Assembly (NCBI GenBank): GCA_035628955.1
Contig: DASPIV010000230.1
Location: 1-36,825 of the forward strand
Length of the DNA stretch: 36,825 nt
Direction: 5' to 3'
DNA from: Bordetella sp.
Lineage (GTDB): Bacteria > Pseudomonadota > Gammaproteobacteria > Burkholderiales > Burkholderiaceae_B
Shown: positions 16,552 to 32,715 of the stretch, piece after piece
How the letters are laid out: each line of letters starts with the position of its first letter
How positions within the stretch are numbered: position 1 is the first letter of the stretch
The notes under the pieces: generated by a model
What the model was told of the DNA's origin: nothing
Databases searched by the model: none
What the model saw: the letters and a program-made list of their open reading frames with translations, nothing else
Program-made: the position numbers and the translations under genes

Positions 16552-17565
16552 TCAAAGGGTGGCCACCGGCGTAACGGGCGAACCCACGGCGCCGGGCAAG
16601 CGCAACGGTGGTGCGGTCAGCAAGAATTTCGAACGGCCCTGGGCCGCCAGCGCACGGGCGAGTTCGGCTAAATACCAGAGTTCGCCCAGCGGTATGCCGT
16701 ACTGGAACAGGCACAACTGATGCAGCGGCAGGCGCGCGCAGGGCTCGGCCGCCGGGCCCGCTGGAATACCCTCGACCGCATAGTTGTCGGCACACAGTGC
16801 GGCGACGCCGCTGTCGACGATCCAGCGCCGCAGCCGCTCATCCCGGCCGTCCAGCACGGCGCAACTGCGATCCAGCACCGCCAAGTCCGGCTTGCCGGCC
16901 ATCGCCAGCAATTTGTCGGCAAAACCGGTGTACAGGCACAGCATGTCGCCGGCCTGGATATCACCGCCCGCAGCGTCCAGGGCGCGCATCAGCACGTCAT
17001 AGCCCACGTATTGGCGCGCGTCGCCGCATAGCGCGTACAGGTCGAGCAGCACGCCGCGCGACTGGATGGCTTTTTCCGCCATGGTCTGGATACCCAGGCG
17101 GCGCGCACCGACAGGCGCATCGCCGTCCGGCCCGACCACATCGGTGCCGGCGCGGAACCCGTTGTAATACACCGCCACGGGCTGGCCATTGCCGTCCACG
17201 TCGAACAAGTGGCCCACGTGCGCGTAGCTGTCCCATTGCGTGGAATACTGCGTGTGCAGAGTCACCGCGTCGTCGCAGACCACGTCGGTATGCGCATGGC
17301 CGGCCGGGTCCACCGGCAAGTTGTAGACCGGCCGCCCATCGCGCCGCGTCGGCGCCAGCGCGGGCGGATGCCGGCGCGGGTTCAGCACATTGCCGCCGGG
17401 CAAGTCCAGCGGCAGGCTCAGGCAGATGCTGCGCCCATCGCGCACTTCGCGTATGCCGCGCAGCACCGCCTGGGGCGTGATCAGATTCAAGCGGCCCAAC
17501 TCATCATCGGGCCCGAAATCGCCCCAGTTCGACTGCGGCGGCCGTACTTTCCAGCGCTTGTTCAT
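16552..17565 (-). CDS. Cyclase-family (kynurenine formamidase-like) metal-dependent hydrolase
   Basis: WGDFGPDDELGRLN, QYSTQWDSYAH, RGVLLD, ADNYAVE, GELWYL, GAVGSPVTPVA. Confidence 0.88.
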   Translation of the reverse strand: MNKRWKVRPPQSNWGDFGPDDELGRLNLITPQAVLRGIREVRDGRSICLSLPLDLPGGNVLNPRRHPPALAPTRRDGRPVYNLPVDPAGHAHTDVVCDDAVTLHTQYSTQWDSYAHVGHLFDVDGNGQPVAVYYNGFRAGTDVVGPDGDAPVGARRLGIQTMAEKAIQSRGVLLDLYALCGDARQYVGYDVLMRALDAAGGDIQAGDMLCLYTGFADKLLAMAGKPDLAVLDRSCAVLDGRDERLRRWIVDSGVAALCADNYAVEGIPAGPAAEPCARLPLHQLCLFQYGIPLGELWYLAELARALAAQGRSKFLLTAPPLRLPGAVGSPVTPVATL

Positions 17566-18772: not shown

Positions 18773-19684
18773 TCAGGACTTGAAACCGCCCGCCATGCGT
18801 GTGGGCGTCATGCTGCGCAGGGTCTTCAGGAAATCCTTGGCCGGCCGGCCCAAGGGCTCGTACAACAGATGAAAGGCGTCCACATCCACCTTGGACTCCG
18901 CATCCAGCGGCCGCACCACCACGTCGGCATGGCGAAGGCCGGCGGCAGTCAGTTCGTCGACCAGCGCAATACCGGTCTGTTCCTGGGCCAGCGCCCAGGC
19001 TACGTGCACCTGCTGCACTTCGATGCTGAAGCGCAAGATACAGCCCGCCCGGGCGGCCATCTCGCGTATGGTCTGCGCGAACGGAATATCACTGGCATAG
19101 CCAATCAGCTTCTGATCCTGCAGATCGGACACCTGCAAGCGGCGCCGTCGCGCCAGCGGATGCGAACGCGGAATCGCCGCCACCAGGCTGGTTTCGAACA
19201 GGGGATGCACGCGCAGGTTGGGATGGCTGATAGGCATCTGCGCGACGCCGATCTCGAACTGGCGGTCAAGCAGCGACTGCAGCAACGTGCTTGGACTCAT
19301 GGTGCGCAGTACCACCTGCACATCGGGGTGGGCCTGCGCGAAAGCGCTGATGGCACGCGGCAACAGCGACTGGCTCAGGTTTGCGCTGCATGCCACCCGC
19401 AGGAAAGCCGTGCGCTGGTGGACCAGGTCCTCGGCTACCTCGTTGACCCGGGTCACGCACTGGTAGAGCGAATCGACTTCGATGAAAAGCCGGTTCGCCT
19501 CGGGGGTGGGATAGATGCGGCCCTTGATGCGCTCGAACAATTGCATGCCCAGGCGCTGCTCGGTGTAGGCCACCAGCCGGCTGACTGCCGGCTGGGACAC
19601 GTTGAGCACCTTGGCCGCCCCCGATATCGAATGGGTCAGCATGATGGCGCGAAACGCCTCGATCTGGCGCAGGTTGATACGCAC
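18773..19684 (-). CDS. LysR-family transcriptional regulator
   Basis: NLRQIEAFRAIM...SISGAAKVLNVSQPAVSR HTH; divergent from the 19788-28579 operon. Confidence 0.94.
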   Translation of the reverse strand: MRINLRQIEAFRAIMLTHSISGAAKVLNVSQPAVSRLVAYTEQRLGMQLFERIKGRIYPTPEANRLFIEVDSLYQCVTRVNEVAEDLVHQRTAFLRVACSANLSQSLLPRAISAFAQAHPDVQVVLRTMSPSTLLQSLLDRQFEIGVAQMPISHPNLRVHPLFETSLVAAIPRSHPLARRRRLQVSDLQDQKLIGYASDIPFAQTIREMAARAGCILRFSIEVQQVHVAWALAQEQTGIALVDELTAAGLRHADVVVRPLDAESKVDVDAFHLLYEPLGRPAKDFLKTLRSMTPTRMAGGFKS

Positions 19685-19691
19685 GGCTCAC

Positions 19692-19710
19692 CTATAACAT
19701 TTGATTATAG
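19692..19710. promoter_or_regulatory. LysR-type binding site CTATAA-N7-TTATAG
   Basis: Perfect 6-bp inverted repeat containing the T-N11-A box, just upstream of the LysR start in the divergent promoter region. Confidence 0.72.
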
Positions 19711-19787
19711 AAATTGAACAAATAAGCATAAGCTATTCTAGGATCGTCTTCCTATACTGCCTTCTCCCATGCACGGAGGAAGGCGCA

Positions 19788-21152
19788 GTGAGCGATTTTG
19801 ATCTGGTAGTTCGAGGCGGCATCGTCGACGCACAGGCAATCACGCCGGACGGCTGGCTGGCCGTGCGCGACGGCCGCGTGGCAGCCCGCGGCGATCGCGG
19901 CGCCGATGCGCCCGCCGCGCGCGACAGTATCGACGCGCGCGGCCTGTGGATCATGCCGGGCGTGGTAGATGGCCAGGTCCATTCGGCCAGCCAGGCCAAT
20001 CAAGAGGGCCTGGGCCAGGCCTCGCGGGCAGCCGCGGCGGGCGGGGTCACCGTCATGGTCGACATGCCCTACGACGACCCCGAACCTGTCGCCTGCCGGG
20101 CCAGCCTGGACGCGAAGATCGCCGAAGTCGAGCGCGACTGCCATGTCGATGTGGCCTTGTACGGAACGCTCAATGACACGCATGGCCTGGACGCCGCGGC
20201 TGGCCTGATCGAAGGCGGGGTGTGCGCATTCAAGTTCTCGACTTTCGAAGCCACTCCGCGGCGCTTCCCACGCGTCGAGGAAGATATGTTGTATGAAGCC
20301 TTCCGGCGCATCGCGGCAGCCGGCCTGGCCTGCGGTGTGCACAACCAGGTGCAGGAACTGACACGCAAGAATATCGAGCGCATGGTGGCCGAAGGCGACA
20401 CGGGCTGGGATGCCTTCCTGCGGGCGCACCCGCCCCTGATCGAGAACCTTGCCACCGCGTCCATCTATGAAATCGGCGCGCAGACCGGGGCCCGCGCCCA
20501 CGTGGTGCACGTCTCTACCAGCCGAGGCTTCGAGATCTGCGACATGTACCGCCAGGCGGGGCACCAGGCATCCATCGAGACTTGTGTGCAGTACCTGATG
20601 CTGAACCACGAAGAACACACCCGCCGCTTCGGCGCCAAGACAAAGCATTACCCGCCCATCCGGCCCAAGGCCGAGGTCGACCTGCTCTGGACGCACATCG
20701 CGCGCGGCGCTTGCACCTTCGTGTCTTCCGATCACGTCAGTTGGGGCCTGGAACGCAAGTCGAATCCCAACGTATTCAAGAATGCCTCCGGCGGCCCCGG
20801 CCTCGAGACCCTGCTGCCGGCCTTCTGGACCGGCTGCGAGAACCACGGCATCGCTCCCACCATGGCGGTGCGCCAGCTCAGCGCCAACCCGGCGCGCCAC
20901 TTCCTGCTGCATGACCGCAAGGGCGGCCTGTCGGTCGGGCAGGACGCCGACCTGGTACTGCTCAAGCCCGAGCGGTATGCCTACGACCCCGCCACCAGCG
21001 TGTCGGCCGTGCAATGGAGTTCGTTCGAAGGCATGACATTCAGCGTGCGGGTGCACGCCACGTACAGCCGCGGCCAATTGGCCTATGACGGAACCGTGCG
21101 CAACGCCGCCGGGCACGGGCGCTTTCTGCGCCCCGCCGGAGGCCTTCGATGA
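19788..21152 (+). CDS. Cyclic amidohydrolase (allantoinase/dihydroorotase/hydantoinase family); candidate hydantoin-5-propionate hydrolase
   Basis: GTG start with GGAGG RBS. PGVVDGQVH, AAAGGVT..VDMP, AFK (carboxylated Lys position), HVVHVS, PPIR, SSDH, NPAR, KG.L.VGQDAD. Confidence 0.88.
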   Translation: MSDFDLVVRGGIVDAQAITPDGWLAVRDGRVAARGDRGADAPAARDSIDARGLWIMPGVVDGQVHSASQANQEGLGQASRAAAAGGVTVMVDMPYDDPEPVACRASLDAKIAEVERDCHVDVALYGTLNDTHGLDAAAGLIEGGVCAFKFSTFEATPRRFPRVEEDMLYEAFRRIAAAGLACGVHNQVQELTRKNIERMVAEGDTGWDAFLRAHPPLIENLATASIYEIGAQTGARAHVVHVSTSRGFEICDMYRQAGHQASIETCVQYLMLNHEEHTRRFGAKTKHYPPIRPKAEVDLLWTHIARGACTFVSSDHVSWGLERKSNPNVFKNASGGPGLETLLPAFWTGCENHGIAPTMAVRQLSANPARHFLLHDRKGGLSVGQDADLVLLKPERYAYDPATSVSAVQWSSFEGMTFSVRVHATYSRGQLAYDGTVRNAAGHGRFLRPAGGLR

Positions 21153-22408
21153 ACCAGGTCCGCATCGACGCCGACCGCCTCTGGCGCCGCGTCATGGACC
21201 TGGCGGCATTCACGCGCGCCGATGCGCCGTGGACGCGGCGTGCCTTCGGTGCCGAATTCAAGGCGGCCCGCGCCTGGCTGGAACAGGCATACCGCGCCGC
21301 GGGGCTGGACACGCATGTCGATGCCGCCGGCAACCTGGTGGGCCGCCGGCCTGGGCGACGTCCCGGCTTGCCGCCGCTTGCTACCGGCTCGCATTGCGAC
21401 ACCGTTGCCGAAGGCGGCCGCTTCGACGGCATAGCCGGGGTACTGGCCGGCCTGGAGATTGCGCACTGCATGCAAGAAGATGGCCATGTGCTGGAGCATC
21501 CGTTCGAGGTCATCGACTTCCTGTCCGAAGAGCCCAGCGACTACGGCGTGTCCTGCGTAGGCAGCCGGGCCATGGCGGGCCAACTGGGTCCGCAACACTT
21601 GGCACAGGCCGAGCCGGGCGGTGAAACGCTGGCGCAGGCAATCGACCGTATCGGCGGCAGCAGCGCGGCACTGGCAAGCGCCGACCGGCGCAGCCGTCCC
21701 AACGCCGCCTTTATCGAACTGCATATCGAACAGGGGCCGGTGCTGGAACATCACGGCCTGCCGATCGGGGTAGTGAGCCATATTGTCGGCATCCGCCGCG
21801 TGGCCCTGACAGTACATGGCCGTCCCGACCATGCGGGCACCACGCCCATGGACATCCGCCGGGATGCCCTGGTGGGCGCGGCCGAACTGATCATTGGCGC
21901 CCGCCGCCAGGCCGAGGCCTACCAGGGCCAGCCCCGCTATGTGGTGGCCACCATCGGGCACATGGCCATCACGCCGAACGCGGCCAATGCCGTGCCTGGA
22001 TCGGCCCGCATGACATTGGAAGTGCGCAGCGACGATCCGGCCGTGCTGCGCGACTTTCCCGAAAAACTGCTGGCGGCCTGCCAGCCCAGGCTGCGCGCGC
22101 TGCAGCTCGGCGCCGACCTGGCCGACCTGACCGAGGCTGCTCCCACGGCCTGCAGTGCCGATGTCATGCGCCAGATCGAGCAAGCGGCCGCCGACCTGGG
22201 CCTGGCCAGCAAGGTGCTGCCCAGCGGGGCGGGCCACGATGCGGCCTACATGGCGGCACTGGGCCCGATGGGCATGATCTTCGTGCCGTGCCGCGACGGC
22301 CGCAGCCATTGCCCCGAAGAGTGGCTGGAACCCGATCAGCTGGCCCATGGCGCACAGGTTTTGTATCGGACATTATGCAGGCTGGACCAGGCTCTGCTGC
22401 CGGCCTGA
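21149..22408 (+). CDS. M20-family N-carbamoyl-L-amino-acid amidohydrolase; candidate N-carbamoylglutamate hydrolase
   Basis: GSHCDTV..GGRFDG..GV, EE, ELHIEQGPVLE, HAGTTPM..RRDAL, SGAGHDA, SHCPEE. ATGA overlap with the upstream gene. Confidence 0.92.
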   Translation: MNQVRIDADRLWRRVMDLAAFTRADAPWTRRAFGAEFKAARAWLEQAYRAAGLDTHVDAAGNLVGRRPGRRPGLPPLATGSHCDTVAEGGRFDGIAGVLAGLEIAHCMQEDGHVLEHPFEVIDFLSEEPSDYGVSCVGSRAMAGQLGPQHLAQAEPGGETLAQAIDRIGGSSAALASADRRSRPNAAFIELHIEQGPVLEHHGLPIGVVSHIVGIRRVALTVHGRPDHAGTTPMDIRRDALVGAAELIIGARRQAEAYQGQPRYVVATIGHMAITPNAANAVPGSARMTLEVRSDDPAVLRDFPEKLLAACQPRLRALQLGADLADLTEAAPTACSADVMRQIEQAAADLGLASKVLPSGAGHDAAYMAALGPMGMIFVPCRDGRSHCPEEWLEPDQLAHGAQVLYRTLCRLDQALLPA

Positions 22409-22433
22409 ACAGGAAAGACTTCAAGGGAAACCA

Positions 22434-24064
<1,631 letters not shown>

Positions 24065-24068
<4 letters not shown>

Positions 24069-25144
24069 TTACCGATCATCTAGTTCCGGCGGACATCGAC
24101 GCGGCCATCATGGGCGGCCTGCTGCTGTCGGCCGGCGGCAGCGGCCGGGCACGCGTTGCCCAGAGCCGGCGCTTTGCCGAACTCGCCTGCCAGCGCGGCC
24201 CGCTGCCATTGCGCCAGCTCGACAGCCTGCCCCCCGATAGCCAGATACTGGTATCCACGGCCGTGGGCGCGCCCGGCGCGGGCAAGCACCTGGCCGATCC
24301 GGATCATGCTGTCCTGGCGGCGCGCAACCTGATCGCCGCCAGCGGCGTGCGCATCGATGCCGTCATGCCCGGCCATGTGCCGGGCTTCTATGCCTGGCTG
24401 CTGGCCGCCGAGCTGAACGTGCCCTTGCTGGACGCAGCCTGCAACGGGCGCGGCCACCCCACGGTGCGCATGGGCAGCCTGGGCCTGTCTTCGCAGCCGG
24501 ACACGCTGCTGTACCAGGCGGGTGCCGGCGCGAACCTGCAGATCACGCTGCACGGCAACATGCTGACCACCTCGACGCTGCTGCGTGCGGCAGCGGTGCA
24601 GGCGGGCGGCCTGATCATGGCCTGTCGCGGCCCGCTGCCCGCAACACTGGTGGCGCAGGCGGCCGCGCCCGGCGCCATCGGCTGCCAACTGGCGCTGGGC
24701 AAGGCGATGCTGGACGCGGGAGAAAACGCCGAAGCGCGCATCGCGGCCCTGGTTTCGACGGGCGGCGCGCGCCTGCTGGCAAAAGGCGCCATCCAGGAGA
24801 ACACCGTAGCCTACCAGGACGGCTTCGACGTCGGCACGGTCAGCCTGGCCGACCAAGACAGCGGACAGTTGCTGCAACTGGGCGTGTGCAACGAATTCAT
24901 GACCCTGCAGGCTGACGGAAAGCGCGTGTCCACGTTCCCGGATCTGCAGGCCGCCATCGACCTGGACACCGGCGCCGTGCTGGCGATTTCCGAAATGAAG
25001 CCGGGCCAGCGGGCCGCGCTGGTAGTGATCCCCAAGGCCCGCCTGCCCATGGGGGCGGGCATCTACGACCCCAATGTCTACCCTGACGTAGAAGCGCGCA
25101 TGCAGGCGCCCCTGTCCATGTACGCTCTCGATCCCCAAGCCTGA
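24065..25144 (+). CDS. DUF917-family protein; candidate thiohydantoin-propionate desulfurase
   Basis: N-terminal D.AI.GG.LL.AGG.G, VGAP, D.ACNGRGHP, G.D.G, NEF, TFPDL; ~360 aa. ATGA overlap with the hydratase gene. Confidence 0.8.
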
Positions 25145-25155
25145 AGGTGCCACCG

Positions 25156-25755
25156 ATGATGACGCTGTACGACAGCCGCAAGTCCGGCAACGGCTGGAAG
25201 CTGCGGCAACTGCTGCAATTGCTGGGACACCAGTATGAACGGCGCGTGCTGGACCTGGCGGCGGGCGAGGCGCGCACACCGGAAATGCTGGCCTTGAATC
25301 CGCTGGGCCGGATCCCCGTGCTCGTCACCGACCAGGGTATGGCGCTGCGCGAATCCAATGCCATCCTGCTGGTGCTGGCCGAGGGCAGCCCATATCTGCC
25401 CACCGAGCCGGCCGCACGTGCCGACGTGCTGCAGTGGTTGTTCTTCGAACAGTACGACCATCTGCGCAACTTCGCGCGGCCGCGCTTTCTAGTTTCGATC
25501 GCGCGCAGCGCCGCGCCCGACGCCCCGGAAGTCATCGCGCTGCGCGAGGCAGGCGTACGGGCCCTGCGCGTCATGGACGACCATCTGGCCCGCCACGAAT
25601 ACCTGGCGGCCGACCAATACACCGTGGCGGATATCGCGCTGTACCCCTACACCTGCATGGCGCCCATGGGCGGCTATGACTTGCAGCCCTATCCACACGT
25701 ACTCGCATGGCTGTCCCGCATAGGCGCACGTTCCGACACGCTCGCCCTTCCCTGA
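25156..25755 (+). CDS. Glutathione S-transferase family protein
   Basis: TLYD...SGN.WK, LNPLGRIPVL, ESNAIL, WLFFEQ, YTVADIALY. Confidence 0.92.
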   Translation: MMTLYDSRKSGNGWKLRQLLQLLGHQYERRVLDLAAGEARTPEMLALNPLGRIPVLVTDQGMALRESNAILLVLAEGSPYLPTEPAARADVLQWLFFEQYDHLRNFARPRFLVSIARSAAPDAPEVIALREAGVRALRVMDDHLARHEYLAADQYTVADIALYPYTCMAPMGGYDLQPYPHVLAWLSRIGARSDTLALP

Positions 25756-25790
25756 AACCATCTTCTGTCGAACACAAGCTGGAGCACTGT

Positions 25791-26774
25791 ATGCCATTCC
25801 GTCATCGAATCGCCTGCGCCTTCTGGGCACTGGCCGCGGCCGCCGCCATCCCTGTCGCATCGACAGCGGCCGAGACTTATCCGTCCAAGCCCATCCGGAT
25901 GGTGGTTCCGTATCCGGCCGGCGGCGGATTCGACACCATCACGCGCCGCATGGCCGAAGGCCTGCGCGAACAATTGAATACGCCGGTCGTTGTCGAGAAC
26001 AAGCCCGGCGGCAACACCATCATCGCCACCGACCTGGTGGTGCGCGCCCAGCCCGACGGCTACACGCTGCTGATGAACGCGCCGGCGGGAATCGTGCAGG
26101 GGCCGTGGCTGCAGAAAGACTTGCCGTACGACCCCATCAAGGACCTGCAGCCGATCTACATGGTGGCGCAGGTACCCACTGCGTTGATCGTGCCGGCGTC
26201 GCTGGGGGTCGATACATTTGCCCAGTTCGTCGACTACGCAAAGCGCCACCAGGGCGAGATGGCCTACGCCAGCCTGGGCAACGGCAGCACCTTCCACATC
26301 TTCGGCGCCATGCTGAACGACCGCGTAGGCGCCCAGGCCACGCATGTCCCGTACAAAGGCGACGCCCCGGCCATGGGCGACCTGGTGCCCGGCCGGGTGC
26401 AGTTCATGTTCAACAACCCGATAACGGCCATCAATTTCGCCAAACAGGGCAAGGTGCGCATCCTGGCGATCAGCGGAGCGCAGCGCCTGCGGGCGGTGCA
26501 GGATATCCCCACGCTGGGCGAGCTGGGCATGCCGCAATTCAATATAACGGGCTGGTATGGGTTATTCGCGCCGGCCGGTACGCCGCGCGCCGTTACCGAC
26601 AAAATCGCCCAGGCGGTCAAGGCCGTGATGCAGACACCCGTAATGCAAAGCTACCTGGAATCGGTAGGCGTGCTTGCCAGCGACTCGGGTGTAGATGCTT
26701 TTACCCGCCAGGTGAACCAGGAATACCAGGCCTGGGGCGAACTCATCAAGCAGAACAACATTCACGTCGACTGA
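25791..26774 (+). CDS. Bug/TctC-family substrate-binding protein
   Basis: Start at ATG 25791 with GGAG RBS. YPSKPIRMVVPYPAGGGFD, VENKPGG, PDGYTLL, HVPYKG. Confidence 0.94.
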   Translation: MPFRHRIACAFWALAAAAAIPVASTAAETYPSKPIRMVVPYPAGGGFDTITRRMAEGLREQLNTPVVVENKPGGNTIIATDLVVRAQPDGYTLLMNAPAGIVQGPWLQKDLPYDPIKDLQPIYMVAQVPTALIVPASLGVDTFAQFVDYAKRHQGEMAYASLGNGSTFHIFGAMLNDRVGAQATHVPYKGDAPAMGDLVPGRVQFMFNNPITAINFAKQGKVRILAISGAQRLRAVQDIPTLGELGMPQFNITGWYGLFAPAGTPRAVTDKIAQAVKAVMQTPVMQSYLESVGVLASDSGVDAFTRQVNQEYQAWGELIKQNNIHVD

Positions 26775-26857
26775 CCCCGGCGCGCGCCGCGCGCCTACCT
26801 GACTAGGCGCCCCGCCGCCCGCGCACGGTTCGTTCTCATCTACTTCGGAAGGTCATC

Positions 26858-28579
26858 ATGCATAGCTTCCCAGACCGGCGGCGCAGCGGCGCCTGCCTGA
26901 TGTTCGCCGTCTTGTGTATCGCGGCGCCCTGGTCGGCCCGCGCGCAAGAGCCGGTGGTTCTCGATGGCGCCCACCTGACCTACCGGCAAGTTGCGCAGAT
27001 CGCGCGTGCCGGCGCGCCGGTTCAGATCGATCCGCAAGCGCGCGCCCGCGTGGCGCGCGCCCACGATATCGTGCTGGCAGCCGCGGCGGCCGACATGCCG
27101 ATCTATGGCCTGAACCGGGGCGTGGGTTCGGCCAGGCAGGTTGCGGTCCTGGAAGGCCAGCGCGAGAACGCCAGCGAGGTGCGCAAGTCGTCGGAAGCGT
27201 TCAATCGCAATCTGCTCATTTCCCACAGCCGTGCAACCGGGCCCGCCACCGATGCGGCACGGGTGCGCGCGGCCATGGCAGTGCGGCTGAACACGGCGCT
27301 TACCGGTTCATCGGGCATGCAGCCGGTTATTGCCGACATGTATGCCGCGCTGCTCAACGCCGGCATCACGCCCGCCGTGCCGCGCGACGCCTCGGTGGGC
27401 GAGGCCGACATATTCCTGCTGGCATACACGGGGCTTGCGATGATGGGGGTGGGCGATGTGATCGTCGACGGCCAGCGCCAGCCTGCCGCCCGGGCACTGC
27501 GGGATGCGGGCATCGAACCGGTGCGTCCGTTCGCCAAGGATGCCCTGGCCATCATGAGCTCCAATGCCTACTCGGCCGGGCATGCGGCCTTGGTGGCAAA
27601 CGACCTGGAGCACTTGCTCAGGCGCGCCGACCTGGTGTTCCTGGCCAGCCTGGAGGCGCTCAATGGCAACGTGGCGCCGCTGTTGGCCGGCAGCGTGGCA
27701 GTACGGCCTTTCAAGGGCCATCGCGAAGCCGCGGCCGACATGTCGGACCTGCTGCAGGGCAGTTATCTATGGAAGAAAGATCCGGCCCGCTTCAGCCAGG
27801 ACCCGCTCAGTTTCCGCACCACTGCGCAACTGCACGGCGCGCTGCGCGAACAGCTGCAGGCCCTGGCCGGACACTTGAGCATCCAGCTCAATGCATCGGA
27901 CGACAATCCCACGGTGCTGGTCGACGTACGCGCGCCCGACAACGCACCCGAGCAAGAGGCCCGCTATTACGTAAGCGGCACGGTGGACGGCCGGCCGGTG
28001 CAGGGCGCGGTCATTCCCACCGCCCACTTCGAACCTGTCAGCTGGGTGCTGGACGCGCAGGCCATGGCCATTGGCCTGAGCCACTTGACCAACCAATCCA
28101 TGCAACGCGCCAACCGGCTGGCAACCAAGGACTTCACCGGCATCGACCTGCTGGAAGGGCAGCCGCCGGGCAGCCTGGCGGGGTTCTGGAAAACAGCCAA
28201 CGTCATACAGACCCGAGTCTTTGCCGATACCTTGCCGGTGTCATCCCTGGTGCAGCCTTCGGCCAAGGACATCGAAGACGTAGGCACCCAGGCGCCGCTG
28301 GCCATCGAGCGGCTGGATCGCATCGTGGACCATGCCTACCGCATGCTGGGCCTGGAACTTGCCGTGGCAGCCGAGGTCATCGACCGGCGCCTGCAGGCGC
28401 AACCCCAATTGGCCCTGGCAGCGCCCACCGGAGAATTGCTGGCCCATGCGCGCCTTGCAATGAAGCAATCCCAGCCACGCCTGCCGGGAGGCGACATCGA
28501 TGCGGCCTACATGCTGGTGCGCTGCACCGGCGATCCTGCCGCGAAGGCCGCCATCTGCGGCCCTGCCGCCAGCCCCTGA
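26858..28579 (+). CDS. Aromatic amino acid lyase family (HAL/PAL fold), MIO-less, with N-terminal signal peptide; candidate ergothionase-type trimethylamine lyase
   Basis: VVLDG..LT, PIYGLNRGVG (catalytic Tyr), RAAMAVRLN, SVGEAD in place of SVGASGD, KDALA..SSN, QDPLSFR...Q.HG, N.SDDNP, EDV. Residues 1-29 form an n/h/c signal peptide ending A-R-A. Confidence 0.88.
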   Translation: MHSFPDRRRSGACLMFAVLCIAAPWSARAQEPVVLDGAHLTYRQVAQIARAGAPVQIDPQARARVARAHDIVLAAAAADMPIYGLNRGVGSARQVAVLEGQRENASEVRKSSEAFNRNLLISHSRATGPATDAARVRAAMAVRLNTALTGSSGMQPVIADMYAALLNAGITPAVPRDASVGEADIFLLAYTGLAMMGVGDVIVDGQRQPAARALRDAGIEPVRPFAKDALAIMSSNAYSAGHAALVANDLEHLLRRADLVFLASLEALNGNVAPLLAGSVAVRPFKGHREAAADMSDLLQGSYLWKKDPARFSQDPLSFRTTAQLHGALREQLQALAGHLSIQLNASDDNPTVLVDVRAPDNAPEQEARYYVSGTVDGRPVQGAVIPTAHFEPVSWVLDAQAMAIGLSHLTNQSMQRANRLATKDFTGIDLLEGQPPGSLAGFWKTANVIQTRVFADTLPVSSLVQPSAKDIEDVGTQAPLAIERLDRIVDHAYRMLGLELAVAAEVIDRRLQAQPQLALAAPTGELLAHARLAMKQSQPRLPGGDIDAAYMLVRCTGDPAAKAAICGPAASP

Positions 28580-28650
28580 GCCGAGGCGGCGCCCGACGGC
28601 AAGCCATTCAACCAACGTGATGCAGGCCGGTATCGATGAGCGGCCGCAGC

Positions 28651-28683
28651 TGGCGCGCGGGCGTGGCGCGCCATTTTATTTTT
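28651..28683 (+). terminator. Rho-independent terminator ending the 19788-28579 operon
   Basis: 8-bp stem TGGCGCGC/GCGCGCCA, 7-nt loop, followed by TTTTATTTTT. Confidence 0.75.
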
Positions 28684-28891
28684 CTGTCATTGACATCGCC
28701 CTGAATTCCGACTTATCCACTCAAGCATCCGTGCCTGCTGCGCTCAGAAGCGCATAATGAATCGGGTCTTCCCCTGAAGGAAGATGCTGGCGATTCATCG
28801 TTGGCGCTGTCTCCAGCCTGTGGTCCCGTGTTTCCAGAATGCATGTTCTCAGTCGGGCCGAGACAGCAGGAAGCAAACTTGGGAGAGTCAC

Positions 28892-29608
28892 ATGACAGAA
28901 GACACGCGGCCGCGCAGGCGATTCCTGCAGGCATTGGCGCTGGTACCTGCCTCGACACTTGCGGGCGGTGTAGCGGTCACGCAAACGGCCTGCAGCAACC
29001 AGGCCGACCGCGTTGCCGGCCCCGCCGAGGCCTATGCGCCCACTTACTTCACCCAGGAAGAGTGGGCCTTCATCAACGCCGCGGTCGACCACCTGATCCC
29101 TGCCGACGAGTACGGTCCCGGCGCCATCGACGCAGGCGTGCCCGAGTTCATCGACCGCCAGATGGAAACGCCCTACGGCCACGGCAAGCTCTGGTATATG
29201 CAAGGGCCCTTCCATCCCGATTCGGTGCCCGAACTGGGGTACCAGCTCAACCTGACTCCCCGTGACGCGTACCGCCACGGCATCGCGGCGTGCGATGCCT
29301 GGTGCATGAAAACCCATGGCAGCGCGTACGCCGGACTCGACAGATCGCTGCAAGAGCAGGTGCTGAAAGACTTGCAGGCCGGCAAGATCGAGCTCGATAG
29401 CGTGCCTTCGGCCACTTTCTTCAGCTTCCTGCTGGGCAACGCCAAAGAAGGCTTCCTGTCCGACCCCATGTACGGCGGCAACAAGAACATGGTTGGTTGG
29501 AAGATGGTGGGCTTCCCCGGGGCGCGCGGCGATTTCATGGACTGGACCGACCAGCCCAACGCCAAGTATCCCTACGGTCCGGTGTCGATCTCCGGCAAGA
29601 AGGGGTAA
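28892..29608 (+). CDS. Gluconate 2-dehydrogenase subunit III (Tat-exported)
   Basis: Start at ATG 28892 (GGAGAG RBS). RRRFL twin-arginine motif, LIPADE.GPGA..AGV..FIDRQ, EGF.SDP.YGGN..MVGWK..GFPG. Confidence 0.9.
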   Translation: MTEDTRPRRRFLQALALVPASTLAGGVAVTQTACSNQADRVAGPAEAYAPTYFTQEEWAFINAAVDHLIPADEYGPGAIDAGVPEFIDRQMETPYGHGKLWYMQGPFHPDSVPELGYQLNLTPRDAYRHGIAACDAWCMKTHGSAYAGLDRSLQEQVLKDLQAGKIELDSVPSATFFSFLLGNAKEGFLSDPMYGGNKNMVGWKMVGFPGARGDFMDWTDQPNAKYPYGPVSISGKKG

Positions 29609-29612
29609 GCCC

Positions 29613-31388
29613 ATGGCCATCAAGAAAGACAAAGTCGACGCGGTGCTGGTGGGATTCGGCTGGACCGGCGCCATCATGGGGCAGGAACTGACCGATGCGG
29701 GTTTGCATGTACTGGCGCTGGAACGCGGCGCCATGCAGGACACCCCCAAAGACGCCCCGTACCCCAAAGTGCTGGATGAACTGGCCTACTCGGTGCGCGG
29801 CAAACTGTTCCAGGACCTGTCGAAAGAAACGGTCACCATTCGCCACGGCGTCAATGACGTGGCGGTGCCGTACCGCCAGAACGGCTCGTTCCTGCTGGGC
29901 ACTGGCGTGGGCGGCGCAGGCTTCCACTGGAACGGCATGCACTATCGCATCCTGCCCGAAGAGCTCGAGCTGCGCACGCGCTACGAAACCCGCTACGGCA
30001 AGGATTTCATACCCGAAGACATGACCATCCAGGACTTCGGCGTCACCTACGACGAGCTGGAACCCTGCTTCACCCAGTTCGAATACGTGTGCGGCACGTC
30101 GGGCAAGGCGGGCAACCTGAACGGCCAGATCGTCGAGGGCGGCAATCCGCACGAAGGCCATCGCAGCAAGGAATACCCGCTACCGCCGCTGGCCACCACG
30201 CTCAGCGCGCAATTGTTCGAGACGGCCGCCCGGGAAGCCGGCTTCAATCCCTTTCCTGCGCCGGCGTCCAATGCATCGGGTCCTTATACCAACCCCTACG
30301 GCGTGCGCCTGGGACCCTGTAATTTCTGCGGTTTCTGCGAGAACTATGGCTGCTACATGTATGCCAAGGCGTCGCCGCAAAGCACCATCCTGCCGGTGCT
30401 GTTGAAGAAACCCAACTTCGAACTGCGTACGCATTCGCACGTCATCAAGGTCAACCTGGACTCCACCGGCAAGAAGGCGGTGGGCGTCACCTACATCGAC
30501 GCGCAGGGCCGCGAGATCGACCAGCCCGCCGACCTGGTGGTCCTGTCGGCCTACCAGATGCACAACGTGCGCCTGCTGCTGCTTTCAGGTATCGGCCAGC
30601 CCTATGACCCCAAGACCAATGTAGGAGTCGTGGGCAAGAACTACGCGTACCAGATGAACGGCGCCATCAATGTGCTACTGCCCAAGGGCACGCAGCTCAA
30701 TCCCTTCATGGGCACGGGTGCGGGCGGGGTCAGCATGGACGACCTGAACGGCGACCAGTTCGATCATGGCCCGCTGGGCTTCGTGGGCGGCGCCAGTATC
30801 CGGCATGTGCGCACGGGCGGGCGTCCGATCAAGCAGGCGGCCACGCCGCCGGGCACGCCTACCTGGGGCACCGCCTGGAAAGGCGCGGTGCAGGACGCTT
30901 ACCAGCGCTACATGGCCATCGGCATGTCGGGTTCGGTGATGTCGTACCGCGACGCCTACCTGTCGCTGGATCCCACTTACAAGGACACCTACGGCCAGCC
31001 CTTGCTGCGCATGACCTTTGATTGGCACGACAACGAATTCAAGATGCTGGCCTACATGGGCGCACGCATGGAAGAAGTGGCCAAGGCCATGAAGCCCGAG
31101 AAGTACTTCGTGGGTGTGCGCAAGAAAGGCTCGCACTATGACACCCGCGTGTACCAGAGCACTCATAACACGGGGGGCGCCATCATGGGCTCGAACCCCA
31201 GGGAAAGCGTCGTCAACAAGTACCTGCAAAGCTGGGACGTACCCAATGTGTTCGTGATGGGCGCCTGCGTGTTTCCGCAGAACATGGGCTACAACCCCAC
31301 CGGGCTCGTGGGCGCGCTGGCTTATTGGTCGGCGCAGGCCATACGCGAGCAGTACCTGAAGAACCCCGGCCCCCTGGTCCAGGCTTGA
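29613..31388 (+). CDS. Gluconate 2-dehydrogenase flavoprotein subunit (GMC oxidoreductase)
   Basis: VDAVLVGFGWTG, VGGAG.HW, CNFCGFC, RLLLLSGIG, YQSTH.TGG..MG, YNPT. Confidence 0.92.
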   Translation: MAIKKDKVDAVLVGFGWTGAIMGQELTDAGLHVLALERGAMQDTPKDAPYPKVLDELAYSVRGKLFQDLSKETVTIRHGVNDVAVPYRQNGSFLLGTGVGGAGFHWNGMHYRILPEELELRTRYETRYGKDFIPEDMTIQDFGVTYDELEPCFTQFEYVCGTSGKAGNLNGQIVEGGNPHEGHRSKEYPLPPLATTLSAQLFETAAREAGFNPFPAPASNASGPYTNPYGVRLGPCNFCGFCENYGCYMYAKASPQSTILPVLLKKPNFELRTHSHVIKVNLDSTGKKAVGVTYIDAQGREIDQPADLVVLSAYQMHNVRLLLLSGIGQPYDPKTNVGVVGKNYAYQMNGAINVLLPKGTQLNPFMGTGAGGVSMDDLNGDQFDHGPLGFVGGASIRHVRTGGRPIKQAATPPGTPTWGTAWKGAVQDAYQRYMAIGMSGSVMSYRDAYLSLDPTYKDTYGQPLLRMTFDWHDNEFKMLAYMGARMEEVAKAMKPEKYFVGVRKKGSHYDTRVYQSTHNTGGAIMGSNPRESVVNKYLQSWDVPNVFVMGACVFPQNMGYNPTGLVGALAYWSAQAIREQYLKNPGPLVQA

Positions 31389-31401
31389 GGAGGCACGCAA
31401 G

Positions 31402-32715
31402 ATGATCAAGCACACCATCATCGCGGCCGGCCTGGTCTTGCTGGCAGGTCCGGCCTGGGCCGCGGAAGGCGCCACCGGACGGGCCGATGCCCAACTGATC
31501 GAGCGGGGCGCATACCTGTCGCGTGCCGGCGACTGTATCGCCTGCCACACTGCGCAGGGCGGCAAGCCGTTCGCGGGCGGCCTGGGGCTGGACTCGCCGC
31601 TGGGCATGATCTACTCCACCAACATCACGCCCGACAAGGATACCGGCATCGGCAGCTACACACTGGAAGACTTCGACCGGGCCGTGCGCCAAGGGGTCGC
31701 CAAGGACGGCCATTCGCTGTACCCGGCCATGCCGTATACGGCGTACGCCCGGATATCGCCGCAAGACATCGAAGCGCTGTACGCCTATTTCATGCATGGC
31801 GTGCAACCGGTAAGCCAGGCCAACAAGGGCACGGACATCATCTGGCCGCTTTCCATGCGCTGGCCGCTGGGCATCTGGCGCTGGATGTTCGCGCCCGACG
31901 CCGCCGGGGCCGCCCCGGCCAGCCAGGCCGCCGATCCAGGCCAGGCCGAGGTAATGCGCGGCAAGTACCTGGTGGAAGGACTGGGCCATTGCAGCACCTG
32001 CCACACGCCGCGCGGTTTCGCCTTGCAGGAAAAAGCGCTGACCGACGCCGACGGACCGGAATTCCTGTCCGGCGGCGTAGTGGAAGGCTGGCTGGCCAAG
32101 AACTTGCGCGGCGACACGACCGACGGGCTGGGCAGTTGGTCCAAAGCCGACATCGTGGCCTTCCTGAAAACCGGCGTCAACAATCATTCCGCCACGTTCG
32201 GCGGCATGTCGCAGGTAATCTCCGACAGCACCCAGCACCTGACCGATGCCGACCTGAACGCCATTGCGGCCTATCTGAAGACACTGTCACCGGTGAACAA
32301 GAATGCCACCCGGCCGCTGGCCTACGATGCCGCAGCGGCGCAGGCACTGCGTACCGGCAAAGACCAGGGCGAAGGCGCCATGACGTTCCTGAACAACTGC
32401 GCCGGCTGCCACCGCAGCACCGGCAAGGGTTATGCGCAGACGTTCCCGCAGCTGGCGCTGAGTTCGACGGTGAACTCGGCCGACCCGACCTCGCTGATCC
32501 ATATCGTGCTGAAAGGGGCGCAGTTGCCGGGCACGGCAGCCGCGCCCACGCAGTACGCGATGCCGGGTTTCGACTGGCGCCTGAACGACCAGGAAGTCGC
32601 CGCGGTAGTCAGCTTCGTGCGCAGCAGCTGGGGCAACCAGGCCTCGGCCGTCAGTGCAGCTGAAGTGGCCAGGGTGCGTGAAGATGTCGGTGCCGCGCCG
32701 CAACCGCAGCACTAG
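31402..32715 (+). CDS. Gluconate 2-dehydrogenase triheme cytochrome c subunit
   Basis: Signal peptide plus three CxxCH motifs (CIACH, CSTCH, CAGCH), YSTNITPD, YPAMPY. Confidence 0.93.
   Translation: MIKHTIIAAGLVLLAGPAWAAEGATGRADAQLIERGAYLSRAGDCIACHTAQGGKPFAGGLGLDSPLGMIYSTNITPDKDTGIGSYTLEDFDRAVRQGVAKDGHSLYPAMPYTAYARISPQDIEALYAYFMHGVQPVSQANKGTDIIWPLSMRWPLGIWRWMFAPDAAGAAPASQAADPGQAEVMRGKYLVEGLGHCSTCHTPRGFALQEKALTDADGPEFLSGGVVEGWLAKNLRGDTTDGLGSWSKADIVAFLKTGVNNHSATFGGMSQVISDSTQHLTDADLNAIAAYLKTLSPVNKNATRPLAYDAAAAQALRTGKDQGEGAMTFLNNCAGCHRSTGKGYAQTFPQLALSSTVNSADPTSLIHIVLKGAQLPGTAAAPTQYAMPGFDWRLNDQEVAAVVSFVRSSWGNQASAVSAAEVARVREDVGAAPQPQH

What the first reader, a model, noticed from the sequence alone, without database searches (positions are those of the whole stretch)
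18773..28683. Complete candidate ergothioneine/thiohistidine catabolic operon with an unusual layout
Seen: one co-oriented unit with a LysR box at the front and a terminator at the end. It encodes a cyclic amidohydrolase, an M20 carbamoylase, a divergent urocanase homolog, a DUF917 protein, a GST, a Bug receptor and an MIO-less HAL homolog; there is no hutI, hutF, hutG or hutC. Established: bacterial ergothioneine degradation (Burkholderia and Paenibacillus systems) uses these five families in order: ergothionase, thiourocanate hydratase, DUF917 desulfurase, hydantoin-propionate hydrolase and N-carbamoylglutamate hydrolase, yielding glutamate, trimethylamine and H2S. Inference: this operon degrades ergothioneine or a close relative (for example the S-methyl form or a selenium analogue). 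Automated pipelines would probably mislabel it hutH/hutU/allantoinase. The exported lyase, Bug receptor and GST are not part of the pathway as I know it.
Basis: partly seen in the sequence, partly recalled or inferred. Interest (0 to 1): 0.88.

Follow-up and report, generated by a model that had tools for sequence, protein, structure and literature searches.

The report
S-methyl-ergothioneine breakdown operon, exported lyase
These eight genes likely let a soil bacterium eat S-methyl-ergothioneine, a methylated form of a dietary antioxidant; four of the enzymes belong to already curated families, while a predicted exported first enzyme from its own small branch and a glutathione transferase that almost always comes along are still unexplained.

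Summary
The operon is real: seven + strand genes, a divergent LysR, a conserved LysR box and a terminator-like end. It is not the classic ergothioneine pathway. The hydratase scores above the S-methyl thiourocanate hydratase cut-off (941.8/880) and below the thiourocanate hydratase one (678/930). It is about 75% identical to PDB 8Q9V. The DUF917 protein likewise passes only the S-methyl model. The sulfur would therefore leave as methanethiol, not H2S. Current NCBIfam names four of five enzymes, so 'pipelines would mislabel it' is mostly wrong.

Open points: (1) The MIO-less lyase has a predicted signal peptide and sits in its own clade. It keeps the thiolate-binding Lys but has a remodelled loop, so its substrate is unproven. 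(2) A GST subfamily directly follows the desulfurase in 20 of 22 S-methyl-type loci and 0 of 10 ergothioneine-type loci. (3) Nine related genomes, mostly MAGs, have the hydratase but no MIO-less lyase, which suggests uptake of S-methylthiourocanate made by others.

This scan found the same core with its GST before, on other DNA (e1-2500419). The primary papers were not held. Verdict: new variant of a known pathway.

The parts
18773..19684 (-). LysR-type regulator, divergent from the operon
   Evidence: Pfam HTH_1 + LysR_substrate; orthologues in the same position in S-methyl-type and ergothioneine-type operons
19695..19707 (.). LysR box (T-N11-A dyad)
   Evidence: conserved in 9 of 9 aligned intergenic regions; binding inferred
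19753..19758 (+). -10-like hexamer of the operon promoter (predicted)
   Evidence: conserved columns; not flagged by the generic scan
19788..21152 (+). hydantoin-5-propionate amidohydrolase ErtD
   Evidence: NCBIfam NF058538 685.8 bits, cut-off 600; allantoinase models below cut-off
21149..22408 (+). N-carbamyl-L-glutamate amidohydrolase ErtE (M20)
   Evidence: NF058540 617.1 bits, cut-off 520
22434..24068 (+). S-methyl thiourocanate hydratase (urocanase fold)
   Evidence: NF058531 941.8/880; thiourocanate model 678.4/930; PDB 8Q9V 897 bits vs 7NED 586 and HutU 530-569; tree
24065..25144 (+). S-methyl thiohydantoin desulfurase (DUF917 fold)
   Evidence: NF058532 464.9/450; thiohydantoin desulfurase model 213.8/440; fold matches 2O3I
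25156..25755 (+). glutathione S-transferase of a subfamily tied to the S-methyl desulfurase; role unknown
   Evidence: Pfam GST; adjacent to the desulfurase in 20 of 22 S-methyl-type loci; subfamily-specific Ser7, Arg8, Trp14, Asp101, Arg104, Arg108
25791..26774 (+). Bug/TctC periplasmic binding protein, orphan; predicted receptor for S-methylthiourocanate
   Evidence: Pfam TctC; signal-like N-terminus; orthologues 49-75% in related operons vs at most 41% for paralogues in the genome; three tctA genes elsewhere in the genome
26858..28579 (+). MIO-less trimethylammonia-lyase homologue with predicted Sec signal peptide (residues 1-29), own clade
   Evidence: best PDB match ergothionase 6S7J; catalytic Tyr83, His123, Lys445 kept; loop and Trp444 differ; clade of 19 rows, SH-aLRT 100; hydrophobic stretch at residues 13-23
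28651..28683 (+). intrinsic-terminator-like hairpin with T tail
   Evidence: energy not beyond shuffles

Best explanation
The operon likely breaks S-methyl-ergothioneine down to glutamate: a predicted periplasmic lyase would strip trimethylamine outside the cytoplasm, and the Bug protein would capture the resulting S-methylthiourocanate for import. Inside, the hydratase would add water and the desulfurase would release methanethiol, giving hydantoin-5-propionate. ErtD would then open the ring and ErtE would release glutamate, ammonia and CO2. The LysR likely induces the operon in response to a pathway intermediate. The GST most likely acts on a carboxylate-bearing intermediate at the desulfurase step, using glutathione to clear or exchange the S-substituent; this is the weakest link. 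Shown here: gene identities, order, family membership and co-occurrence. Inferred: every activity, the location of the lyase, the ligand of Bug and the role of the GST.
For: Hydratase and desulfurase pass only the S-methyl models; ErtD and ErtE pass theirs. The hydratase is about 75% identical to 8Q9V (403 of 536 columns, counted by hand) and shares its shortened loops. It groups apart from HutU and thiourocanate hydratases. No hydratase over the thiourocanate cut-off was found in G000 or in 4 other genomes with this operon type. The lyase lacks MIO like ergothionases (background passages in bioRxiv 10.64898/2026.04.22.720169). It lies in a clade separate from lyases of thiourocanate operons and hutU-linked lyases. 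Only 11 of 266 homologue rows, the window's own included, carry its loop type. Periplasmic trimethylammonia-lyases have precedent in Shewanella. TTT receptors mostly bind carboxylates (PMC5812351 passages). S-methyl-ergothioneine occurs naturally, in mouse urine and tissues (PMC8471778 passages).
Against: The lyase keeps the lysine (Lys445, aligned to Lys384 of T. denticola ergothionase) that the Shewanella preprints say binds the free thiolate, which S-methyl-ergothioneine lacks. The NCBIfam S-methyl hydratase model is broad: it also passes 57-59% identical enzymes with other motifs and other neighbours, so the HMM alone does not fix the substrate. The desulfurase clears its cut-off by only 15 bits. 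Related operons carry a 3-mercaptopropionate-dioxygenase homologue, an S/N-oxide reductase or a methyltransferase, which methanethiol release does not explain simply. The signal peptide was judged by eye and hydropathy only. No activity was measured.
Confidence: 0.68

Rival explanations
1. The operon is a detour for ordinary ergothioneine. The lyase makes thiourocanate, a housekeeping thiol S-methyltransferase methylates it, and the S-methyl enzymes finish the job.
For: The thiolate-binding Lys is kept. A TPMT-family gene lies elsewhere in 5 of 5 genomes checked. In 4 of 4 Xanthobacteraceae-type cassettes (L011, L012, L047, L053) a SAM methyltransferase marks the edge of the conserved block.
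Against: There is no methyltransferase in the window operon or in L001, L002, L004 and L005. TPMT is unlinked. The lyase clade differs from lyases in thiourocanate operons. hutU-linked lyases also keep that Lys, so it is a poor predictor of substrate. The cassette methyltransferase could instead convert methanethiol to dimethyl sulfide (recalled analogy to Mdd enzymes).
Confidence: 0.14
2. The natural substrate carries a larger or oxidised sulfur substituent (for example S-carboxyethyl, S-cysteinyl or a sulfoxide), and the GST or accessory enzymes deal with it.
For: An intact 3-mercaptopropionate-dioxygenase homologue sits in or next to L001, L043, L046, L003, L008 and L048, with internally deleted remnants in L004 and L005. 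A BisC-like S/N-oxide reductase sits in L008, L048 and L066. The GST is near-obligate.
Against: The hydratase is about 75% identical to 8Q9V, with motifs nearly unchanged. The dioxygenase is absent from the window and L002, and an unlinked copy exists in 5 of 5 genomes checked.
Confidence: 0.11
3. Classic ergothioneine catabolism as in Burkholderia and Paenibacillus, releasing H2S.
For: The same five protein families are present. ErtD, ErtE and the LysR box are shared with thiourocanate operons (ErtD 77-80% identical).
Against: The thiourocanate hydratase and thiohydantoin desulfurase models fail (678/930 and 214/440), while true examples L062 and L067 pass them. Motifs differ throughout.
Confidence: 0.04
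4. A divergent histidine (Hut) operon.
For: The hydratase passes the broad hutU model (671/375).
Against: The lyase has no MIO tripeptide and fails hutH (217/539). A canonical hutI-hutC-hutU locus exists on C428. The hydratase is outside the HutU clade.
Confidence: 0.02

Closest known systems
S-methyl-ergothioneine catabolism with S-methyl thiourocanate hydratase, PDB 8Q9V/8Q9U (recalled as Variovorax sp. RA8, Vasseur et al. 2024 ACS Chem Biol; paper not held; PDB lists the molecule only as 'urocanate hydratase')
   Same: Hydratase about 75% identical; hydratase and desulfurase pass the curated S-methyl models.
   Different: I could not see that operon or paper, so whether its lyase, GST or Bug are described there is unknown. 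No curated model and no solved structure closer than 6S7J exists for the lyase.
Ergothioneine catabolism of Burkholderia sp. HME13 / Paenibacillus (recalled), represented here by L067 and L059-L063, L065
   Same: Five-family logic; ErtD 77-80%, ErtE 61-63%, LysR 53-57% identical; same LysR box.
   Different: Hydratase 51-54%, desulfurase 31-33%, lyase 44-50% identical, with other motifs. No GST next to the desulfurase. The two examples annotated (L062, L067) have an MFS transporter after the hydratase rather than Bug. Sulfur leaves as H2S.
Ergothionase of Treponema denticola (PDB 6S7J) and Shewanella periplasmic trimethylammonia-lyases SO_3057, SO_3299, Swoo_3913
   Same: No MIO; catalytic Tyr, imidazole His and the Lys384 position are kept; TM-score 0.83. 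Periplasmic location has precedent.
   Different: 30% identity to 6S7J. The loop after the catalytic Tyr reads Ser-Ala-Arg-Gln for Trp-Asn-Lys-Asp, and Trp replaces Gln before the Lys. It feeds assimilation, not anaerobic respiration.
Structural-genomics GSTs 3M3M and 4HZ2
   Same: Ser-Gly-Asn active-site motif; best PDB matches.
   Different: The operon subfamily has its own conserved Arg/Asp/Trp residues; no substrate is known to me for either.

Membership tests
S-methyl thiourocanate hydratase (NF058531; PDB 8Q9V) | Score above curated cut-off and above sister models | tested here: met
   941.8 vs cut-off 880; thiourocanate 678.4; hutU 671.4. The model is broad.
S-methyl thiourocanate hydratase (NF058531; PDB 8Q9V) | Shortened C-terminal loop and one-residue deletion after Asp-Gln as in 8Q9V, unlike HutU and thiourocanate hydratase | tested here: met
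   alignments; small substitutions vs 8Q9V (Ser for Asn after Tyr-Met; Asn-Lys-Ser-Gln for Asp-Lys-Ser-Ala)
S-methyl thiourocanate hydratase (NF058531; PDB 8Q9V) | Hydrates S-methylthiourocanate but not urocanate or thiourocanate | not testable with these tools
   needs an enzyme assay
Thiourocanate hydratase (NF058530) | Score above cut-off; clade membership | tested here: not met
   678.4 vs 930; separate clade; controls L062 and L067 pass
S-methyl thiohydantoin desulfurase (NF058532) | Score above cut-off and above the thiohydantoin desulfurase model | tested here: met
   464.9 vs 450; sister model 213.8 vs 440; His-Val-Pro-Gly and Asn-Gly-Arg-Gly-His-Pro motifs
ErtD / ErtE of ergothioneine utilisation | Score above cut-off | tested here: met
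   685.8/600 and 617.1/520
Trimethylammonia-lyases (ergothionase family) | HAL fold without the MIO Ala-Ser-Gly; catalytic Tyr kept | tested here: met
Ergothionase in the strict sense | Lys at the Lys384 position and the usual inner-loop residues | tested here: inconclusive
   Lys445 kept, but loop and neighbouring residue remodelled, own clade
Ergothionase in the strict sense | Turnover of ergothioneine to thiourocanate | not testable with these tools
   needs an assay
Histidine ammonia-lyase HutH | MIO tripeptide; hutH cut-off | tested here: not met
   Glu-Ala-Asp; 217.5 vs 539.15
Exported (Sec) enzyme | Signal peptide | tested here: inconclusive
   basic n-region, hydrophobic core (mean hydropathy 2.85), Ala-Arg-Ala before the mature domain, similar in orthologues; no dedicated predictor was available

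The most novel reading that the evidence does not exclude
The lyase founds an undescribed family of exported S-methyl-ergothioneine trimethylammonia-lyases. A few Alcaligenaceae use it to release S-methylthiourocanate as a shared good that many lyase-less bacteria import through Bug or ABC receptors. The tied GST is an unrecognised sixth enzyme of the pathway that handles the sulfur substituent with glutathione.
Probability: 0.3. Interest if true: 0.65.

Novelty: new variant of a known kind. Interest (0 to 1): 0.4.

Why it matters
S-methyl-ergothioneine is found in mammalian urine and tissues, and its biological source is described as unknown (PMC8471778 passage). A complete operon in cultured strains (L001, L004, L005) makes its microbial fate testable. 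It would link ergothioneine turnover to methanethiol and trimethylamine release. It offers a candidate specific lyase, usable like ergothionase for enzymatic quantification. It also points to one unassigned enzyme (the GST) and to possible cross-feeding. The core chemistry, however, is already named in curated databases.

Tried and rejected
Papers. The primary papers (Vasseur 2024, Maurer 2019, Beliaeva 2021) were not held, so what I say of them is recalled. Literature searches listed no paper on the S-methyl pathway, its lyase or its GST. In one search, 35 of 40 papers were listed and none of those held 'S-methyl thiourocanate'. Subscription journals are missing, so this does not show absence from print. 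PMC13547098 held nothing relevant. bioRxiv supplements were closed and could bear on lyase residue assignments.

Complex and expression. Desulfurase-GST complex prediction gave no verdict (score 0.00). No RNA holder was listed; the best DNA holder, a soil metagenome, may be the source of the window.

Other searches. Rfam: no match in the window. Methanethiol oxidase family PF05694: not found in G000, which is 87% complete. The desulfurase has no PDB sequence match; by fold only 2O3I.

Wider genome samples. Apart from the centre genome, the hydratase model found 0 of 400 in the order sample, 0 of 400 in the phylum sample and 0 of 400 in the family of G1128. At most 3 candidates per genome were scored.

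Flanks and limits. Flanking genes (cyclase cluster on the left, gluconate dehydrogenase genes on the right) are not shared with S-methyl-type loci and were excluded. The genomic context of lyase-clade members outside Alcaligenaceae (P0004-P0007, P0009, P0043, P0045, P0055) could not be fetched. A selenium analogue as co-substrate can be neither supported nor excluded. Both trees are quick searches with SH-aLRT only; the careful lyase tree did not finish.
Full report
Observation. The seven + strand genes are present and tightly packed, with a divergent LysR on the minus strand. A T-N11-A box at 19695-19707 and a -10-like hexamer are conserved in 9 of 9 aligned intergenic regions. A terminator-like hairpin follows the lyase, though its energy is ordinary. 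The window is contig C230 of an 87% complete genome. Its closest operon relatives are Achromobacter and Bordetella petrii. The best sequencing run holding it is a soil metagenome that may be its source.

Identity of the enzymes. NCBIfam 20.0 places four enzymes above curated cut-offs: ErtD 685.8/600, ErtE 617.1/520, S-methyl thiourocanate hydratase 941.8/880 and S-methyl thiohydantoin desulfurase 464.9/450. The sister ergothioneine models fail: 678.4/930 and 213.8/440. The hydratase's best PDB matches are 8Q9V and 8Q9U (897 and 894 bits), against 586 for 7NED and 530-569 for the bacterial HutU entries. I counted 403 identical columns of 536 by hand. A tree of 37 hydratases gives three groups: HutU, thiourocanate-type and the group holding the window. 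A caution: the S-methyl model also passes 57-59% identical enzymes of Agrobacterium, Lichenihabitans and Paracoccus with other motifs. Closeness to 8Q9V is therefore the stronger argument.

Internal controls. The genome has a canonical hutI-hutC-hutU locus on C428, followed by a second MIO-less lyase with a signal-like N-terminus, 45% identical. These two are the only PF00221 matches in G000. In the family, 4 of 365 genomes pass the S-methyl cut-off, and 18 more score 750-768 bits. I fetched 8 of those 18 and all 8 have thiourocanate-type motifs; L062 and the Burkholderia locus L067 pass that model. Six of the eight, and L067, share the LysR-ErtD-ErtE module with the window (ErtD 77-80%) but differ in hydratase, desulfurase and lyase. 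The S-methyl operon thus looks like a different front end on a shared back end (inference). No hydratase over the thiourocanate cut-off was found in 5 of 5 S-methyl-type genomes checked.

The lyase. Its best match by sequence and by predicted fold is ergothionase 6S7J. It lacks MIO and keeps Tyr83, His123 and Lys445. Passages of two Shewanella preprints (10.64898/2026.04.22.720169, parts 1 and 3 of 5 plus passages; 10.1101/2025.08.13.670108, passages) state that the Lys384 position binds the ergothioneine thiolate and is neutral in lyases of sulfur-free betaines. Keeping it counts against an S-methyl substrate. However, the hutU-linked lyases keep it too, and the window enzyme changes the residues around it: Trp precedes the Lys, and the loop after the catalytic Tyr reads Ser-Ala-Arg-Gln instead of the usual x-Asn-Lys-Asp. 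Of 266 homologue rows, 11 have this loop type (window included), 164 the usual type and 38 gave no match. In a tree of 51 rows it sits in a clade of 19 (SH-aLRT 100) that excludes all lyases of thiourocanate operons and hutU loci. A signal peptide is predicted from hydropathy and motif only. The lyase ends the operon in L001, L002, L004, L005, L043 and L046; the named ones are all Alcaligenaceae, and L043 and L046 are near-identical to L001.

Lyase-less relatives. For nine genomes with an S-methyl-type hydratase and no lyase nearby (L003, L006, L007, L008, L009, L010, L011, L012, L013), a whole-genome PF00221 search found nothing in 5 and only one MIO-type enzyme in 4. Eight are MAGs of unstated completeness, L008 is an isolate, and L013 has no desulfurase within 10 kb. 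Most keep a Bug or ABC receptor beside the enzymes. TTT receptors mostly bind carboxylates and are often orphans in Bordetella (PMC5812351 passages), and G000 has three tctA genes. The simplest reading is that the imported molecule is S-methylthiourocanate, made in the periplasm by the lyase where present and scavenged where not. This is inference.

The GST. Among S-methyl-type desulfurase loci with at least 700 bases downstream, 20 of 22 have the GST directly behind (exceptions L008 and L052). This holds even in the reshuffled Agrobacterium and Lichenihabitans clusters. It is 0 of 10 for thiourocanate-type loci. I left out four truncated loci (L007, L042, L044, L050; L042 may be the window's own DNA), five without a desulfurase hit (L013, L051, L054, L056, L070) and duplicates; several counted loci are close kin. 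The top 46 GST homologues form a subfamily with conserved Ser7, Arg8, Trp14, Asp101, Arg104 and Arg108. 16 of those 46 share a contig length with a desulfurase hit, against 2 of the next 72. The arginines suggest a carboxylate substrate (inference). Its reaction remains open.

Accessory genes that complicate the picture. A 3-mercaptopropionate-dioxygenase homologue (best PDB 3USS/4TLF) is intact in L001, L043, L046, L003, L008 and L048. It is internally deleted in L004 and L005 and absent from the window and L002. A BisC-like reductase occurs in L008, L048 and L066. A SAM methyltransferase bounds the conserved cassette in L011, L012, L047 and L053. All point to extra sulfur handling, and they keep two rivals alive: a larger or oxidised S-substituent (0.11) and in-cell S-methylation of thiourocanate (0.14; TPMT present but unlinked in 5 of 5 genomes).

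Comparison and verdict. The operon works like the five-step ergothioneine pathway but is not a member of it. It is a member of the S-methyl branch by the two enzymes that define that branch, as far as sequence can test. The primary papers could not be read, so I cannot say whether the lyase and GST are already described; my searches listed nothing on them. The scan had noted the same core with its GST in another genome and nothing like this lyase by sequence. New variant of a known kind; interest 0.4.

Noticed in passing
G000:C428 (L036:102-5740); also L018-L023, L038-L040: In this genus the canonical hutU is followed by a MIO-less lyase with a signal-like N-terminus that keeps the Lys384-position lysine, where hutH would be expected. 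No MIO-type HutH was found in G000. It may be a hercynine or ergothioneine-derivative lyase feeding urocanate into Hut.
   Followed up: partly
L001:14356-14925; remnants L004:14340-14670, L005:14340-14570; window 26775-26857: A 3-mercaptopropionate-dioxygenase-like gene between Bug and the lyase is intact in L001, internally deleted to different extents in L004 and L005, and gone from the window (83-bp gap).
   Followed up: partly
L011:7085-21515; L012, L047, L053: Alphaproteobacterial-type cassette: SAM methyltransferase, double-length LysR, S-methyl-type hydratase, desulfurase, GST, ABC importer, three-subunit molybdenum hydroxylase and ErtD-like gene. No lyase within the loci; no PF00221 match in the genomes of L011 and L012.
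   Followed up: partly
L066:7010-19693 (Agrobacterium pAt plasmid); L071:5917-13709 (Lichenihabitans plasmid): Related clusters with desulfurase-GST, a 59% identical hydratase of another motif type, and a different lyase: a true MIO HutH in L071 and a divergent HAL homologue below the hutH cut-off in L066, which also has an S/N-oxide reductase. These may act on a non-betaine 2-(alkylthio)histidine.
   Followed up: partly
L008:12704-20709 (Caenimonas soli): Between hydratase and desulfurase lie a CoA transferase III, a thiol dioxygenase, an enoyl-CoA hydratase and a sulfate-transporter-like gene; a BisC-like reductase follows the desulfurase; no GST. This recalls 3-mercaptopropionate catabolic clusters (recalled).
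   Followed up: no
window 16552-17565 and L060, L062, L063: A putative cyclase (PF04199), 55-62% identical, lies near the thiourocanate operons of three relatives as it lies near this operon. Probably a shared chromosomal neighbourhood.
   Followed up: no
window 28784-32715: Three-gene membrane-bound gluconate 2-dehydrogenase-type cluster directly downstream, unrelated to the operon. The window also holds three further orphan Bug genes.
   Followed up: no
L068:8980-12709 (Polaromonas plasmid): MIO-less lyase with a signal-like N-terminus, followed by a Bug receptor and an ornithine-cyclodeaminase-family gene.
   Followed up: no
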